Position numbers: made by a program. A stretch of 63,573 nt of DNA, filler included, from an uncultured Methanosarcinales archaeon (lineage in GTDB: Archaea > Nanobdellota > Nanobdellia > Woesearchaeales > CAZKBD01), in the NCBI GenBank assembly GCA_964550945.1. It is 5 parts of 5 records of this genome, joined end to end, with 100 filler letters (N's around TTAATTAATTAA, not from the genome) between each part and the next. Parts side by side here need not be neighbours in the genome. Positions count along the whole stretch, not along the records: positions 26,948 to 40,155 come from CAZKBD010000052.1; 4 more parts are not named here. The stretch is one strand, 5' to 3'. Below, one piece after another: positions 33,001 through 39,000 of this stretch (its first letter is position 1; every line of letters starts with the position of its first letter).

Positions 33001-36000
33001 GGATCACCATCTACTACCTTAATGACGTTTACATCTAATGGTAATGTTGGGATTGGAACAACAACTCCAGCAGCAAAGTTGGATGTTAATGGGAACATAA
33101 CGACCGGGAACATAACATCTTCAGGAACGATTTGTGATAAAAACGGATGCATTGGAAGTGGAGGAAGTAGCGGTTCTGCTGGCTGGACAGAATCAAGTGG
33201 AGTGACTTCTACGAATAATAATGTTGGAATTGGAACAACAACCCCTCCAACAGCAAAGTTGGAAGTTAAAGGAGGGGGTATAATCTGGGATGGCAGTTTT
33301 TCTGCTAAAACTACGGCTACACAAAATAAAAGAGTATTTTTTAATGCTGACTGTGGTGACTATTACACCTATAACGGTCCTTGCGTTTATTTGACTGACT
33401 ACTATGATTCTTCAACAAAGGTCTTGTACTTAACTCCACATAATATCCGATTCAGAGATGGAACTTGGGGAAAGGAAACTTTAATAGATTATACTAAAAT
33501 TACAATCAGTAAAGTAGATGGTACTGGATCAGATATAGCTGAATTAGGCATAGATGGATTAACAATAAGCAAATTAGCAGGATCAGGTTATGCAAAGGCG
33601 TGCATTGATGCTAATGGGCAGTTATGTAGGAATGGTGTTGGCAGCTGTTCTTGTTAATCCTTTTTTTCTCTTTCTTTTTATTATCATCTAATCCTTGCGC
33701 CACAGAAGTGGCAATAATCTCCTTCATAATTAATTTGAGCTCCACAAAATGGGCAAAATCTCTGATGATGCCCCTGAGCAGCAGGTTGTTTCTGCTTGAC
33801 AACTCTCTCTTTGGACATTGCTGCAAATATTAATTTAAAGATGCCAACCATAATTAACACTAAACCAGCATAAATAAACAATACTAATTTCTGTTTATCA
33901 ATGTAATAAGAAGCAGCTGCTACTAAGCAACCAATAATCAGATAAGCGATTCCATGGATTTTTACCATTTTTTATTGCTTGCGCACTTTCTTAGATTTCT
34001 TCTTTTCTTCTGGCGCAAACTCCTCAACTATTGCGCCGCAGTCATTGCAGATTATCTGATTCAATTCTTTCTTAGCAAACACCTTATCGCTTCCGCATTC
34101 CGGGCATTCTTTTTGCTTCATTTTGTTTTCAAAATCTTCCTTAATATATCTTCCTTGCCTTTCCATACTAATGCTTCTTTCAAAACCTCTCCAATAGTTT
34201 CAACCGCTATTATCCTTACTTTGCCTAATTTTTTCGGTTCGACAATAATATCCTGGAGATTGGATTTAGGAACAATGATATTCTTAATGCCAGCTTCAAT
34301 AGCAGCCTCAACCTTTGATGTTACGCCTCCAATAGGCAATACATCTCCTCTGACAGATAACGAGCCAGTCATTGCCGTATTCTGCTTTATAGGTATGTTC
34401 TTAAATGCAGATATCACAGATGTTGCAACAGCAATAGAGGCAGAATCGCCCTCAACTCCTTCATATGTTTGTAAAAACTGCACATATATATCATATTTTT
34501 CCTTTAAATCCTCGCCAAAATACATTTTTATTATTGCAGAGACATTCTTTATAGCTTCTTTTGCAATCTCTCCTAGCTTACCAGTTGCTATTATCTCTCT
34601 TTCCTTGCCTCCAGGCGTTACTTGGCTTTCAATAGGCAATATTATCCCTGAATAAGCCTCTTCTCCTCCGATAACAGCTAATCCATTAACTCTGCCAATT
34701 TTATTGCCTTCTGTGATAATAACTTCATATTCTTTTTTCCTTTCAATATATTTGTCAGCAAGTTGCTTTTCCAAAGTTCTAGCAATCTTCTTGGATTCTT
34801 TTATATGCTCTTTTTCAACAGTCTTCGCTCCTTTTTCCTTTGCTAAATCTCCTGCTGCCCTGATCAATCCTCCAAGTTCCCTTAGCCTTAAAGTAAGATG
34901 GCCTTTCCTGTTTGCCATCCTTCTAGCTAACTCAATTATATCATCAACAGCATCCTTTGAAAATGGAGGGATCCTTTTATCCTTAGCAACTTCTTGCGCA
35001 ACAAATATCGCTATCTTATTCCTATTTTCTTCTGTGTCAATCATTGTTTCGTTCATATAGACTTCATAACCATACCCCCTTATTCTTGATCTCAGCGCAG
35101 GATGCATATGCCTTATTGTCTCTAGATTTCCAGCAGCAATCAAAATAAAATCGCAAGGAACCGGCTCTGTATGCACCATTGCTCCAGCACTTCTTTCACT
35201 CTGTCCAGTTATTGAAAATTTTCTCTCTTGCAATGCAGATAATAACTCTTGTTGCGTATGAGGCTCTAATGTCGCAATCTCATCAACAAATAACACGCCT
35301 TGATTTGCTTTGTGGATCATTCCAGCTACAACCCTTTCATGAGCTGGTGTTCCTAGGCCTCCTGAGTTTTTGCATAACATGCCGTTAACTATCACATTTC
35401 CAGAACTAGTTGTAACATTGTACAACTTACCTTTATAATTGATTTTTTCTACTTTTATTACTTTTTGCTTTGTGAGTTTCATGCTTCAGCTTTTTTTAGT
35501 ACGAATCTTTTATTGTTCAAAATTTCATATAGTGAATTTGGCGTTAAATTTAATAATTTCATGCAAGTCTCTGCCCCATAGCCTCGTTCAAGCAACTCTT
35601 CATATCTGCTTCTTTTTATTCTTAAGAATTCATTAATTGTGCTAATTAATTTCTCTTTTTTATAAAAACAGTAGTTCACCTTCATTTTCCTTATGAACAC
35701 TAGTAAATTATCAATTTTGGTCGATATCAACAGCCTATACAAGTACACCTTTTCGGTATGTGTTTTCCTCTTTATGATGGAAGTAGTTTTAATTCCCTTG
35801 CTTCCCAAGAATGCCTTTATTTTATGCATAAATTCGTATCGATTTTTTTCCAAGTCTTCGGTCCCGGTTATAGCTATATCAAACGTATTCAGATAAAATT
35901 TGTTCACGTGGACTTTAGGAATACCAACCTCTCCACCAAAAATTGAACCAAAGAATTGATCTTGAAACTCATCTTTTAAATATACCCAATCTGGGATTTC

Positions 36001-39000
36001 AAGTTCTAATGAAGATTTATTCCCTCTTGGAGCTCCCAACGCCAAGAAAAACCTTATAACCTTCCTATTAGTATTTTGGTAACACCACGAATGCCCTTTT
36101 TCTCCGCCCTCTATTACTCTTGAGTTCTTATTCAATCCAAAGATGTTTTCAATATCTTTCCCAAATTCTTTTACTGCTTCTAACTCTGAACTTGATAAAA
36201 AAATGCCATTTAAATTATCAAAGATTCCTCCATCCCCATATGTAGTTCCGAGAACTCGTGTAATTAAGAGTAATCTTTGATTATCGAGTTTTAATGGTAA
36301 TAATCCTTTTTCTTTTAACCAGTTTGCTGCCTGTATTGGAACAGGGATATGCTTTTTTGCATGCCACCATCTAGTCTTCCCTATTTTCTGACCCATGGCT
36401 TTTGCAATTCTCTTATATCCCCAAGTAGGATTTTGTGCTTTGATATCCAAATAATTGTAATACAATCTGCATTGTTCTTGTTGTCTTTCATCGTAAGTAT
36501 TTATTATATCCTGTTCATCAATTATAACATCCTCTGATTTAGAGATAACATCATCATCGGCTCTGATATCTCTTGCTTCCCTATAATCAATCTTCCCATT
36601 CTTATTGATAGCTATCTTATGTTCTGGGGTTACAATAAGTTCTTTATTTTCGGAAGTTGTTAGTTTTATCATTTTACCATTGTAATCATATCTGTTGCAT
36701 GATAAAACTTCAACTGGAGAAACTGAACCGTTTGTTTCACCTAGAACAGACAGCGCATTTTTTGGAAGAAATATTGCTTGGTAATTGTTCTGCCTCTCTA
36801 TTTTCTCGCTATGGTTGGAAAATAGGAGGTCAATTTCTCGCCCAATCTCGACATTTGTCATGCTACCCTCTCCTACTTTTGTAATTACTTGAGAAGGACA
36901 AAAAGTTTGGAAAGGATCATGAAGCACATCGCCAAGAAGAGCGCCAGCATGCGCTCCTGTTGCATCCCAAAAAGGCGCTTGTTTTTTGTTGTAGTTATCT
37001 ACTATTACCTTGGGATTCTTGGTCTTATTATCCATCCTCTTGCCTAAATTAAGGAATATGATAAATGCTGCCAAAAATATCATGCCGCCAAGGAAAAAAG
37101 CAGCAAACATTACATCACTATTGTAATAAGACCTAACCCACCACGGAGCAATCATTGCAAATATCACTAAAATAAACATGAATACATTCTGGTTTTTGAA
37201 AAGATTCATGCCCTCAATTCTAGAGCGCATAACTAATTCTCTGCCTTTGCCAGCTGGAACAGTCCTGATTAAAGGCTGGTTTTCATCATTTGGATTAGGG
37301 AATGAAACCACATCAACCAATTTTTCCTTGGGCATTAGCTCTGCTAGACCAATGCCTAACATGGATTTTCCTGTTCCAGGCGCGCCAATCAAAAGAACAT
37401 GCCTGTGCTGCAGAGCAGCCTTTTTGATTACCTCAACCGCATCATCCTGGCCAATAACCTGGTCTATTATATTTTTCTGGACCTTGATGTCCTTTGTTGA
37501 TTTAAACTTAAGTTGCGCCATATATATTCTAAATTATACATAACTATTTAAAAAAGTTTGTGTTTTGTTTGAAATGATGAATGAAAAAACCTTGTTGATA
37601 ACAGCCCTGATCTGCTCAATCATTGGCCTTGCATTATTATTTTTTATTTCTGGCAGCATCCCAATAAGCGAAAAAACCATCAATGAGCTTAACAAAAATA
37701 ATCTTGATGAGGTTGTTAAGGTTAAAGGCACTGTAACAAATATGATCAACACCAGCAAAGTCACAATAATTGAGATAACCCAGCCGCAAAGCACATCTAT
37801 CGTCCTGTTTAACGATAAAACCAAGGTTGGGCTTAGCAAAGGAGATTACATAGAAGCTATAGGCAAAGTGGCAGAATACAATGGTAAGATGGAACTGATA
37901 GGCCAAAGAGTAAGGGTTATAGGCTAGCTTTGTTATTTGTTATGTTCTACTTTAATTATCTCTATAAACGCTTTGACAATAGAAACAAACGAGAAAAACA
38001 TCACCAGATAATCTTCTGTGTAATATGGAAGCCCGATATCCATAACCGACTCTTTCCTGGATAGCTTATAGAATGCCCATACGAATATAACAAAGAAAAT
38101 CAGCATGAGCATTAGAAATGCTCCCAGCGCTTTTCTGCGGTACATCTAACCCTCCAGGTTTATAGCTCCGCTTCCAGACAATCTTTTAAATCCTTTTATA
38201 AGGTGTATTCTATTCTTAATTGTATCATATATTTCTTCAAACTCAGCAGGCGTTAGTTCCACTATTCCAGAAGAAGTCTCATTCCTAAACCCAAGAGCGA
38301 TTGACTCATTTCTTGGGTTCAATATATCCTCATTGATCATTACTTCCATTAACTCTGTTTTGTTTTCAATTCGCAAAGAATTACCCTTAAGCACAGATTT
38401 TAATTTTATTATCATCTTAACCTCCCCCAAGAAAAATAATATTTCTTATTTATTTAAATGTTTCTATTTTAAAATAGTAATTTTAATGCGCAAATGCAGA
38501 ACAATAATACCCAAATCTTCAAATATAACCTAAAATAGTAAACTATTTAAATTACTTAAAGAAACTGGTTTTGGAGGGGGATATCTATGGAAATAAAAAA
38601 AATATTTTCAACAAAAAGAATTGTATTCTTATTGGTGTTTATGGCAATGGTGTTTATAGGAAATAAAATAAACTTTTCAGCAGTGGTTGGAGCTAACAAC
38701 CAATACTTTACTTTGTTCCAGTTCTTTGGCCCGATTGCTGGTTCTTTCTTAGGCCCAATTTTTGGAACAATAGCTGTTTTATTCGCTGAGATAACTGATT
38801 TTTTTGTGGTTGGCAAATCATTTACATTAATCAACATTATAAGGCTGACACCAATGCTGTTTGCAGCTTATTATTTTGGCACTAAGAAGAAAAGCATCAG
38901 CATAATTGTGCCTTTAGTAGCTATGGCTGCTTTTATGCTTCATCCGATTGGAAGGCAAGTGTGGTTTTTTTCACTGTATTGGACCATCCCTATTATTGTG

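What a model noticed while it worked through the whole genome (the two positions that open the first line are those of the whole stretch)
34118..37521. LonB protease encoded as two adjacent genes joined by a naturally split intein
The archaeal Lon protease is split inside its intein: g01360 (680 aa) = LonB N-extein (res 1-207) + N-intein starting at Cys208 and carrying the homing-endonuclease-like middle; g01359 (454 aa) starts with its own ATG, a 39-aa C-intein (...[13 protein letters not shown]) and the rest of LonB (AAA lid + protease). The two ORFs overlap by 4 nt (ATGA) in different frames. The same break is kept in many other Woesearchaeales with different spacers and frames, so it is a real split gene that needs protein trans-splicing, not an assembly error.
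Evidence so far: SwissProt alignments: g01360 4-633 = P. horikoshii Lon 17-625, g01359 21-444 = 666-1087. Junction DNA read in three frames: a stop two codons upstream of the ATG in the downstream frame, no homopolymer at the junction itself. Six-frame search with g01359 in 400 Woesearchaeales: among the 150 listed rows 20 genomes match from residue 1-3 (C-intein included) in an open frame of only 454-468 aa; most others match from about residue 39 in 600-700-aa frames (intein-less lonB); 3 lie in 1076-1529-aa frames (contiguous intein); 238 rows were not listed. In 10 of 10 such genomes fetched the N-gene lies directly upstream and ends at the same point, with about 12-338 nt between the aligned parts and f [...]
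(Added by a program. Inside this text positions count along the whole contig: they may not be those of the stretch shown here. "Call 12" and the like, gene names such as g00115 and contig names such as C1 are that model's own, and its searches are not shown. The text may have been shortened before it was handed on; [...] marks where a part breaks off. The agent that wrote the report below was given it as the finding of a first reader that could run no searches.)

Follow-up and report, generated by a model that had tools for sequence, protein, structure and literature searches.

The report
Split LonB intein keeping its endonuclease
This small groundwater archaeon encodes its membrane protease LonB as two overlapping genes cut inside a self-splicing intein that still carries its DNA-cutting homing enzyme, so the protease is very probably joined after translation, and I found no paper describing this layout.

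Summary
Two minus-strand ORFs (680 and 454 aa, ATGA overlap) together make one LonB, interrupted at HDPFQ|SGGLGTP by an intein that is itself cut in two.

The first gene carries the N-extein (residues 1-205), the N-intein and a LAGLIDADG-fold endonuclease. The second carries a 39-aa C-intein and the rest of LonB.

The intein starts at Thr206, not Cys208. Cys208 is not conserved, and only Thr206 gives back the sequence of intein-less LonB.

The same break is present in 20 of 20 relatives fetched, with nine different spacers. It occurs in 23 of 401 genomes of the order and in more than 100 metagenomic protein clusters.

The catalytic positions are kept. Residue 1 is Cys, Ser or Thr in 113 of 113 proteins, and block B Thr and His, the terminal Asn and Ser+1 are invariant. 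All parts show purifying selection.

A complex model supports IntN-IntC binding (0.87, best control 0.01). The intein tree conflicts with genome taxonomy, which suggests that the split cassette still moves.

Splicing itself is not shown. My literature searches found no description. This scan had already noted the same family on other genomes. I class it as a new variant of a known kind.

The parts
36907..37521 (-). LonB N-extein, residues 1-205 of the N gene. It holds Walker A (GAPGTGKS), the predicted long membrane helices and the end ...HDPFQ.
   Evidence: TIGR00764 positions 2-196. Aligns to T. onnurineus LonB 3k1j/4zpx up to HDPFQ. Helices 109-166 in the AF2 model.
36517..36906 (-). N-intein splicing (HINT) part, residues 206 to about 335. 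Thr206 is intein residue 1, and block B is T298-P-E-H301.
   Evidence: Boundary from intein-less and contiguous relatives. T298 and H301 are invariant in 83 sequences. Intein N-terminal models match. The Mja KlbA intein 2jmz matches. This part is the interface with IntC in the complex model.
35482..36516 (-). Homing-endonuclease domain fused to the N-intein, residues about 336-680. Two LAGLIDADG-type helices end in D430 and E531. A conserved C-terminal helical tail spans residues 640-680.
   Evidence: Foldseek matches PI-TkoII 2cw7, TliVMA 7qss, PI-PfuI 1dq3 and I-DmoI (TMt 0.61-0.66). D430 and E531 are at least 90% conserved, and G425 and G431 are invariant. pN/pS is 0.19-0.30. There is no Pfam match for this part alone.
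35479..35482 (-). ATGA stop/start overlap: the TGA of the N gene and the ATG of the C gene.
   Evidence: The same -4 overlap occurs in 12 of 21 loci.
35491..35497 (-). A7 run upstream of the junction. It is not a route to a fused frame.
   Evidence: the downstream frame has TGA directly after the run. There are no indels here in contigs of 3 runs.
35366..35482 (-). C-intein, residues 1-39 of the C gene (blocks F and G), ending LCKN.
   Evidence: Invariant in 19 sequences: E12, G18, K19, Y21, N22, T24, T25, S27, G28, N29, L36, N39. Residues 1-41 form the interface in the complex model.
34121..35365 (-). LonB C-extein, residues 40-454. It starts at Ser40 (+1) and holds [11 protein letters not shown], Walker B (VLFVDE), the AAA lid and the S16 protease domain.
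   Evidence: TIGR00764 positions 195-605 at 635.9 bits. Lon_C and LonB_AAA-LID also match.
37545..37555 (-). Possible archaeal TATA-like element (TTTTTTAAATA), about 27 nt before the ATG of the N gene. This is an inference only.
   Evidence: Read. The consensus is recalled, not tested.

Best explanation
This is a naturally split class-1-type intein in lonB whose N-fragment has kept the homing endonuclease.

How it most likely works:
1. The two genes are probably co-transcribed and translationally coupled through the ATGA overlap (inferred).
2. Gene 1 gives the membrane-anchored N-extein (Walker A) fused to IntN and the endonuclease. Gene 2 gives the 39-aa IntC fused to the rest of the ATPase, the lid and the protease.
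3. IntN and IntC associate into one HINT fold (modelled).
4. Thr206 makes the N-O acyl shift, helped by block B Thr298 and His301. Ser40 of the C gene (+1) takes over the N-extein. Asn39 cyclises.
5. The products are a seamless 620-aa LonB reading ...HDPFQSGGLGTP... and a free IntN-endonuclease/IntC complex (chemistry inferred from conserved residues).

The break arose once in a contiguous Lon intein, at the linker between the endonuclease and block F. The whole cassette has since moved between lineages, probably by homing (inferred from trees).
For: Anatomy:
- LonB model TIGR00764 positions 2-196 lie in the N gene and 195-605 in the C gene, so nothing is missing at the junction.
- Intein-less relatives read HDPFQ|SGGLGTP.
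- This is the only LonB in a genome that is 92% complete.

Conservation of the break:
- It is present in 21 of 21 loci, with spacings of -11, -4 (12 loci), +3, +14, +34, +224/225, +325/330 and +439 nt, in the same or in different frames.
- 23 of 401 genomes of the order hold this intein, all in frames of 358-737 aa and none contiguous.
- 217 protein clusters match at E <= 1e-3. Of the 120 listed, nearly all are 675-745 aa and of N-gene type.

Catalytic residues:
- Residue 1 is Cys 46, Thr 38, Ser 29 and nothing else in 113 proteins.
- Thr298 and His301 are invariant in 83 sequences.
- Asn39 and Ser40 are invariant in 19 sequences.

Selection: pN/pS is 0.30-0.48 for IntN, 0.19-0.30 for the endonuclease and 0.10-0.34 for IntC, against 0.17-0.42 for the exteins, over 9 pairs.

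Binding: the complex model scores 0.87, with 0.01 as the best of 3 controls. The mark was reached by 116 of 157 solved complexes and 2 of 215 mismatched pairs. Runs agree in at least 87% of contacts, and the partner's pLDDT is at least 64. The interface includes 204-209, 293-298 and 301-304 of the N gene and 1-41 of the C gene. Split-intein complexes have been solved, so this pass may reflect likeness to them.

Family context:
- Contiguous relatives share Thr1 or the missing penultimate His: P0129 has T1 and SN|S, and P0144 and P0147 have KN|S.
- Two relatives (L040, L049) have lost the endonuclease but keep the split halves.

One origin and later movement:
- The split forms are one clade at 99 SH-aLRT against contiguous forms.
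- The intein alignment rejects holding together the two members of GTDB family f21 (p-AU 0.0011) and of f24 (p-AU 8.9e-6).
Against: - No protein, RNA or splicing data exist. No RNA run holds the locus.
- Thr at intein position 1 was reported as not observed in natural inteins as of 2009 (PMC2807308, passage read).
- The C-intein has no block F or penultimate His, and it has Asn where Asp is usual in block F. The chemistry is therefore atypical.
- Intein residues 208-245 (the block A region) are poorly conserved.
- The endonuclease part has no Pfam match.
- On movement, the extein alignment does not reject the intein tree's L039+L041 pair (p-AU 0.13). Flanking lonB sequence may have travelled with the intein, or the extein signal may be weak.
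- The AU groups were named after I had seen the tree.
- The complex pass may come from likeness to solved split inteins.
Confidence: 0.85

Rival explanations
1. The intein halves act only as a non-covalent dimerisation module. LonB works as a two-chain enzyme, splicing chemistry has been lost, and Thr1, Lys at the penultimate position and the missing block F His are signs of decay.
For: - Thr1 and the absence of the usual C-terminal His residues.
- The block A region is poorly conserved.
- A precedent exists of a gene split by a mobile endonuclease and reassembled without splicing: phage Aeh1 NrdA (PMC3045599, abstract seen in the listing).
Against: - Residue 1 is restricted to the three nucleophiles in 113 of 113 proteins, despite many C/S/T switches.
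- Block B Thr and His are invariant.
- The terminal Asn is invariant.
- The same atypical C-terminus occurs in contiguous relatives, which must splice to give a working ATPase.
Confidence: 0.08
2. The break is an assembly or sequencing artefact, or a recent pseudogene of a contiguous intein-containing lonB.
For: An A7 run lies 9 nt upstream of the ATG.
Against: - A +1 or -1 change in the run cannot join the frames.
- Contigs of runs from two studies show no indel.
- The same break point occurs in 21 of 21 loci and in more than 100 protein clusters from independent assemblies.
- Both sides are under purifying selection.
Confidence: 0.01
3. Ribosomal frameshifting or stop-codon readthrough makes one contiguous precursor that splices in cis.
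For: - A_AAA_AAA lies in the zero frame just before the stop.
- One relative (L051) has the two ORFs in the same frame, separated by one stop.
Against: - A -1 slip meets TGA after one codon.
- The spacers range from -11 to +439 nt in varying frames, so no single recoding signal is conserved.
- The C gene always begins with its own start codon at the same intein position.
Confidence: 0.02
4. The split intein is real, but the cassette is no longer mobile. It would be inherited vertically from an old ancestor with many precise losses, and the conserved endonuclease would be domesticated or kept for another role.
For: - The extein tree follows taxonomy, and the split label is clustered: 6 changes against 12.2 in shuffles.
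- The extein alignment does not reject the L039+L041 pair (p-AU 0.13).
- Endonuclease activity is untested.
Against: - The intein tree conflicts with GTDB families at 97-99 SH-aLRT.
- AU tests reject the f21 pair and the f24 pair.
- Genera hold both states: in g102, G189 and G250 have the intein and G101 has an intein-less frame. g21 has it in 1 of 2 genomes.
- The catalytic D430 and E531 and the whole domain are under purifying selection.
Confidence: 0.25

Closest known systems
Contiguous LonB inteins at the same site. The names Pho and Pab Lon inteins of InBase are recalled. Tested here on unnamed relatives P0144 (1108 aa, Thermococcales-like), P0147 and P0129. Novikova 2016 (PMC4760082, table passage) lists 10 LonB inteins in Euryarchaeota.
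   Same: - Same insertion point, HDPFQ|SGGLGTP.
- Homologous splicing and endonuclease domains: P0129 is 39% identical over residues 16-470 of the intein.
- Same C-terminal signature, YN.TT..GN....G.L..N|S, without a penultimate His.
   Different: Those are one open frame. Here a stop and a start separate the endonuclease from block F. The split forms are a separate clade at 99 SH-aLRT.
Canonical naturally split inteins: cyanobacterial DnaE and Nanoarchaeum equitans PolB (named in PMC2677866 section 16 and PMC4031507).
   Same: - Two genes, with the break between blocks B and F.
- A short C-intein of about 35-40 aa starting with Met.
- Predicted IntN-IntC association.
   Different: - Those are mini-inteins without an endonuclease. 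Reviews describe split inteins as split mini-inteins (PMC4760082 and PMC10663303, passages). Here a roughly 345-aa LAGLIDADG-fold domain stays fused to IntN.
- Here the halves are adjacent, not dispersed.
- Here the nucleophiles are Thr1 and Ser+1.
Fractured genes of Dassa et al. 2009 (PMC2677866; abstract and section 16 read).
   Same: - A split intein with a homing endonuclease at the break.
- Stop/start overlaps.
- Proposed as stages between contiguous and dispersed split inteins.
- One relative, L071, has the endonuclease as a free-standing 371-aa gene after a 325-aa N gene.
   Different: - There the endonuclease is a separate gene of GIY-YIG or Vsr type, in likely phage loci. LAGLIDADG was not seen in those loci (section 16).
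- Here it is LAGLIDADG-fold and in frame with IntN.
- Here it sits in a cellular housekeeping gene of archaea.
Endonuclease-bearing inteins with solved structures: PI-TkoII (2cw7), TliVMA (7qss), PI-PfuI (1dq3), PI-SceI (1vde).
   Same: Best structural matches of the N-gene model: HINT plus LAGLIDADG architecture.
   Different: Those are single chains. Sequence identity is only 12-16%.

Membership tests
Intein (HINT splicing domain, class 1) | The insert is absent from orthologues, and removing it restores the conserved host sequence. | tested here: met
   Intein-less relatives read HDPFQ|SGGLGTP. The window reads HDPFQ + [Thr206...Asn39] + SGGLGTP. TIGR00764 positions 196 and 195 abut.
Intein (HINT splicing domain, class 1) | A nucleophile (Cys or Ser) at intein residue 1. 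| tested here: met
   The window has Thr206. The family has Cys 46, Thr 38, Ser 29 of 113. Thr is chemically competent (S1T mutant of Tli pol-2) but was not seen in natural inteins as of 2009 (PMC2807308, passage).
Intein (HINT splicing domain, class 1) | Block B TxxH motif. | tested here: met
   T298-P-E-H301. Thr and His are invariant in 83 sequences.
Intein (HINT splicing domain, class 1) | A C-terminal Asn followed by Cys, Ser or Thr at +1. | tested here: met
   N39|S40 is invariant in 19 sequences and present in 21 of 21 loci.
Intein (HINT splicing domain, class 1) | Penultimate His (block G) and block F Asp and His. These are usual, not obligatory. | tested here: not met
   The penultimate residue is Lys or Ser in 21 of 21 loci. 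Asn22 stands where Asp is usual, and IntC has no conserved His. The same holds in contiguous relatives.
Intein (HINT splicing domain, class 1) | Protein splicing activity. | not testable with these tools
   No experiment was possible, and no RNA or protein data were found.
Naturally split intein | The two intein parts lie on separate ORFs, each with its own stop or start, and the break is conserved among relatives. | tested here: met
Naturally split intein | The halves associate into one fold. | tested here: met
   Prediction only: score 0.87, with 0.01 as the best of 3 controls. The mark was reached by 116 of 157 solved complexes and 2 of 215 mismatched pairs. Runs agree in at least 87% of contacts, and the partner's pLDDT is at least 64. 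Like complexes have been solved, so the pass may be from memory.
Naturally split intein | A mini-intein without an endonuclease domain, as reviews describe the kind. | tested here: not met
   A domain of about 345 aa with LAGLIDADG fold is fused to IntN. Two relatives, L040 and L049, do fit the mini form.
LAGLIDADG homing endonuclease | Two-motif alpha-beta fold, with an acidic residue at the end of each motif helix. | tested here: met
   Foldseek matches I-DmoI at TMt 0.61-0.66, plus PI-TkoII and PI-PfuI. Helices 417-426 and 517-531 end near D430 and E531, both at least 90% conserved. The motif definition is recalled.
LAGLIDADG homing endonuclease | A match to the sequence profile (Pfam LAGLIDADG families). 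| tested here: not met
   No family matches residues 336-680 at E <= 1. The contiguous relative P0144 matches LAGLIDADG_3 at 25.2 bits, above the cut-off of 22.5.
LAGLIDADG homing endonuclease | Site-specific cleavage of the empty allele, and homing. | not testable with these tools
   Indirect evidence only: the intein tree conflicts with taxonomy. The reverse test was inconclusive.
Fractured gene (Dassa 2009) | A free-standing endonuclease gene between the two split-intein genes. | tested here: not met
   In the window the endonuclease is in frame with IntN. The free-standing form exists in relative L071.
Archaeal LonB (TIGR00764) | Full-length match above the curated cut-off. | tested here: met
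   The C gene alone scores 635.9 bits against a cut-off of 516.6. The N gene supplies positions 2-196 at 201.4 bits.

The most novel reading that the evidence does not exclude
A split intein that is still a working homing element. The excised two-chain complex (IntN-LAGLIDADG plus the 39-aa IntC) would be the active endonuclease. It would copy the whole cassette, including its internal stop and start, into empty lonB alleles across families of DPANN archaea. Splicing would start from a natural Thr1 (or Ser1 or Cys1) nucleophile without any Cys in the catalytic set. This would be a living intermediate between contiguous and dispersed split inteins, and a natural source of cysteine-independent split inteins.
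Probability: 0.5. Interest if true: 0.8.

Novelty: new variant of a known kind. Interest (0 to 1): 0.72.

Why it matters
- Natural split inteins are called rare and are described as split mini-inteins (PMC10663303 and PMC4760082, passages). Here there is a large family in a cellular housekeeping gene of archaea: over 100 protein clusters and 23 of 401 sampled genomes.
- The family keeps the homing endonuclease on one half. Its relatives show the other stages: contiguous, fused-split, free-standing endonuclease and endonuclease lost. The route by which inteins become split can therefore be studied directly.
- It offers natural Thr1 and Ser1 forms with Ser+1. Cysteine-less split inteins are called rare and are sought as tools (abstracts of PMC11923092 and PMC12707363 in the listing).
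- The sole LonB of these reduced genomes would depend on a membrane-bound and a soluble fragment meeting after translation.

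Tried and rejected
- RNA evidence: no RNA holder was listed for the junction region, so expression was not addressed.
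- Pfam on the endonuclease part alone gave 0 families. On the 39-aa IntC alone it gave only a weak Intein_splicing match (E 0.018).
- The AU test for the three f16 members on the intein alignment did not finish.
- The reverse AU test held L039+L041 together on the extein alignment. It gave p 0.13, so it was not rejected, after one unfinished run.
- dN/dS proper could not be computed because synonymous sites are saturated (pS 0.44-1.0). Only pN/pS is given. One search stopped on a script error after two pairs and was redone.
- The search for related loci with the free-standing endonuclease P0125 gave only 2 loci. In L071 the contig ends before any C gene, so a three-gene layout was not shown there.
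- The search of earlier findings near this place returned nothing.
- Literature searches found no paper on a split LonB intein or on a split intein with a fused endonuclease. The terms were: split intein + Lon protease + archaea, naturally split intein + DPANN, split intein + Woesearchaeota, and split intein + homing endonuclease domain + IntN + naturally. Subscription journals and supplements were not searched.
- Cys208 as the splice nucleophile is rejected.
- One search failed on term syntax and was redone. One search was an empty script.

Full report
**Observation**

Two minus-strand ORFs lie at 35479..37521 (680 aa) and 34118..35482 (454 aa). The junction reads ...AAA AAA GCT GAA GCA TGA in the upstream frame, and the ATG of the downstream gene overlaps that stop as ATGA. 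In the downstream frame a TGA lies two codons before the ATG, directly after the A7 run (35491-35497). Neither a -1 slip nor a one-base error in the run can therefore join the frames.

The LonB model TIGR00764 matches positions 2-196 in the first gene and 195-605 in the second from residue 38. Intein models match in between. The genome (92% complete, 177 contigs) holds no other LonB. Contigs of public runs from two studies cover the junction and the A7 run without any indel. One of these runs may be the source sample.

**Correction of the boundary**

Six fetched intein-less relatives read HDPFQ|SGGLGTP, and three relatives with a contiguous intein read HDPFQ|C...[10 protein letters not shown]. 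The intein therefore begins directly after Gln205, at Thr206, and ends at Asn39 of the second gene.

It is present in only 2 of 21 loci.

**Conservation of the break**

I repeated the six-frame search in 401 genomes of the order. Of these, 382 have a LonB match. Among the 150 listed rows, 20 genomes besides the window match from residue 1-3 in frames of 454-468 aa, and three rows lie in frames of 1076-1529 aa. A further 252 rows were not listed.

I fetched all 20, and each has the N gene directly upstream. The C gene always starts 38-40 residues before N|SGGLGTP. The spacing between the genes varies:
- -4 in 12 of 21 loci (the window included)
- -11, +3, +14, +34, +224, +225, +325, +330 and +439 in the other nine
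- three pairs in the same frame, the rest in different frames

A second search used the intein part alone and gave the full count. 23 of 401 genomes (G000 included) match at E <= 1e-30, all in frames of 358-737 aa and none contiguous. In two of them (G246, G250) the halves lie on different contigs.

In the large protein collection 217 clusters match the intein part. The 120 listed are almost all 675-745 aa, from MAGs that their sources label Woesearchaeota or Nanoarchaeota, and are named only 'ATP-binding protein', 'hypothetical' or 'Lon'.

One of the 20 genomes (G315) is unpublished. Without it the counts are 19 of 19 and 22 of 400. Two unpublished genomes (G131, G209) served only as intein-less rows in the extein tree.

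**Are the splicing residues kept?**

- Residue 1 is Cys 46, Thr 38, Ser 29 in 113 N-gene proteins. Seven of the 120 were dropped because the motif search did not find HDPFQ. In the 21 loci it is Thr 9, Cys 7, Ser 5. On the intein tree the three residues alternate many times. This restriction to nucleophiles argues for selection on the first acyl shift.
- Block B Thr298 and His301 are invariant in 83 sequences.
- Asn39 and Ser40 are invariant in 19 C genes.
- The penultimate residue is Lys or Ser, never His. IntC has Asn22 where Asp is usual and has no conserved His.

These oddities belong to the whole Lon-intein family. Contiguous relatives end KN|S (P0144, P0147) or SN|S (P0129), and P0129 also starts with Thr.

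Tori et al. wrote that Thr1 had not been observed in natural inteins up to 2009, although an S1T mutant splices (PMC2807308, passage). Mills et al. 2014 name Cys1 or Ser1 as the step-1 nucleophile (PMC4031507, passage). I did not find a later report of natural Thr1 inteins, but my search for one was shallow.

**Selection**

Over nine pairs, pN/pS was as follows:

| Part | pN/pS |
|---|---|
| IntN | 0.30-0.48 |
| Endonuclease | 0.19-0.30 |
| IntC | 0.10-0.34 |
| Exteins | 0.17-0.42 |

Synonymous sites are saturated, so these ratios overstate omega. In a 130-sequence alignment the endonuclease is the best conserved part of the intein, while intein residues 208-245 are very variable.

**Binding and fold**

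The complex model used N-gene residues 196-350 (83-row alignment) and C-gene residues 1-70 (19 rows). It scored 0.87 against 0.01 for the best of 3 controls. The mark was reached by 116 of 157 solved complexes and 2 of 215 mismatched pairs. The runs agree in at least 87% of contacts, and the partner's pLDDT is at least 64. The interface holds the N-junction (204-209), block B (293-298, 301-304) and all of IntC with Ser40 and Gly41. Split-intein complexes have been solved, so this shows likeness to them, not proof.

An AF2 model of the N gene (pLDDT 80.5) matches PI-TkoII, TliVMA, PI-PfuI and PI-SceI. Its middle domain matches I-DmoI at TMt 0.61-0.66. The two motif helices end at D430 and E531, both at least 90% conserved. 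Pfam does not recognise this domain in the window, but it finds LAGLIDADG_3 in the contiguous relative P0144.

**History**

At 50% clustering, the nearest contiguous relative (P0129, 1159 aa) aligns over the whole intein at 39% identity.

In a quick IQ-TREE run the 21 split inteins form one clade (99 SH-aLRT) against three contiguous relatives, which fits one origin of the break. The outgroup branches are long.

The extein tree has 37 rows and follows the GTDB family codes. The split label needs at least 6 changes on it.

The intein tree does not follow those codes. Supported pairs are L048(f67)+L051(f21) at 98, L039(f24)+L041(f135) at 99, L044(f24)+f14 at 99 and L037(f90)+L054(f112) at 97. 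AU tests on the intein alignment reject holding together the f21 pair (p 0.0011) and the f24 pair (p 8.9e-6).

Against this, the extein alignment does not reject L039+L041 (p 0.13). For that pair I therefore cannot exclude that lonB flanks moved too. I also named the groups after seeing the tree.

Genera hold both states. In g102, G189 and G250 have the intein and G101 has an intein-less frame. In g21 the intein is in 1 of 2 genomes.

Variants of the cassette exist:
- Two relatives have lost the endonuclease and keep 358-360-aa N genes. L049 keeps a remnant in the spacer.
- A public MAG has a 325-aa N gene followed by a free-standing 371-aa endonuclease gene, 55% identical to the window's domain.
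- One partial protein (P0073) carries a second, contiguous intein in Walker A.

**Comparison with what is known**

The element works like the cyanobacterial DnaE and N. equitans PolB split inteins. It is homologous to the contiguous Lon inteins. It differs from every described natural split intein that I could find in keeping a fused endonuclease.

Dassa et al. 2009 proposed fractured loci with free-standing GIY-YIG or Vsr-like endonucleases as intermediates, and noted that LAGLIDADG enzymes might do the same (PMC2677866, section 16 read). The half-fused state seen here is not among their observed arrangements.

Four literature searches found no description. Subscription journals were not covered.

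This scan had already noted the same family on other genomes: 27 notes in at least 23 genomes, covering the fused-endonuclease form, the free-standing form and three-piece forms. Those are unchecked AI notes, and I reached my reading before seeing them.

**Verdict**

This is a real, conserved, selected, naturally split intein. It is a new variant of a known kind. Trans-splicing and homing are inferred, not shown.

Noticed in passing
P0073 (partial protein); L056 = G201:C27, a 1530-aa frame: Some relatives carry a second intein in the LonB Walker A motif (...VHN|SMMG in P0073), upstream of the split one. G201 has a 1530-aa contiguous LonB whose N-extein part is about 470 aa too long, probably for the same reason.
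   Followed up: partly
L071:2935-5116 (public MAG contig JBAZPJ010000045.1): A 325-aa N gene (LonB N-extein plus IntN, Ser1) is followed by a free-standing 371-aa endonuclease gene homologous to the window's fused domain. The contig ends before any C gene.
   Followed up: partly
L058 = G166:C12 and L049 = G286:C1 (same GTDB family, f59): Sister lonB exteins (99 SH-aLRT) carry different inteins at the same site. One is a contiguous CIPG...THN type. The other is the split type without an endonuclease. Two intein lineages therefore compete for one site.
   Followed up: partly
window 35482-35601 (N-gene residues 640-680): A conserved helical tail (GYGAE..MK.LNLTP.SLY..LN, with several invariant residues) ends the N gene. 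It is specific to the split family and to the free-standing endonuclease P0125. Its role, DNA binding or contact with IntC, is unknown.
   Followed up: no
G000: C86:4133-5215, C4:32943-33953, C4:2459-3817, C113:581-736: The same genome has further intein matches in long single frames (689, 1065, 1022 and 660 aa). The other inteins of this organism therefore look contiguous.
   Followed up: no
window 32578-33657 (+) and 33684-33968 (-): The neighbours are a 359-aa protein with an N-terminal membrane helix and repeated VGIGTT.P motifs, and a 94-aa membrane protein ending in a CxxC...CxxC zinc-ribbon-like motif. Neither is linked to lonB by any test here.
   Followed up: no
whole window: The window is a concatenation of contigs. 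Places 1-13415 are contig C50, and the lonB locus is on C52, which starts at window position 26948 (and the finding's own note).
   Followed up: no
P0005 (544 aa): A protein from another assembly is 100% identical to the window's N gene over 67% of the intein part but ends in a different tail. This is probably a contig-end or frameshifted gene call.
   Followed up: no
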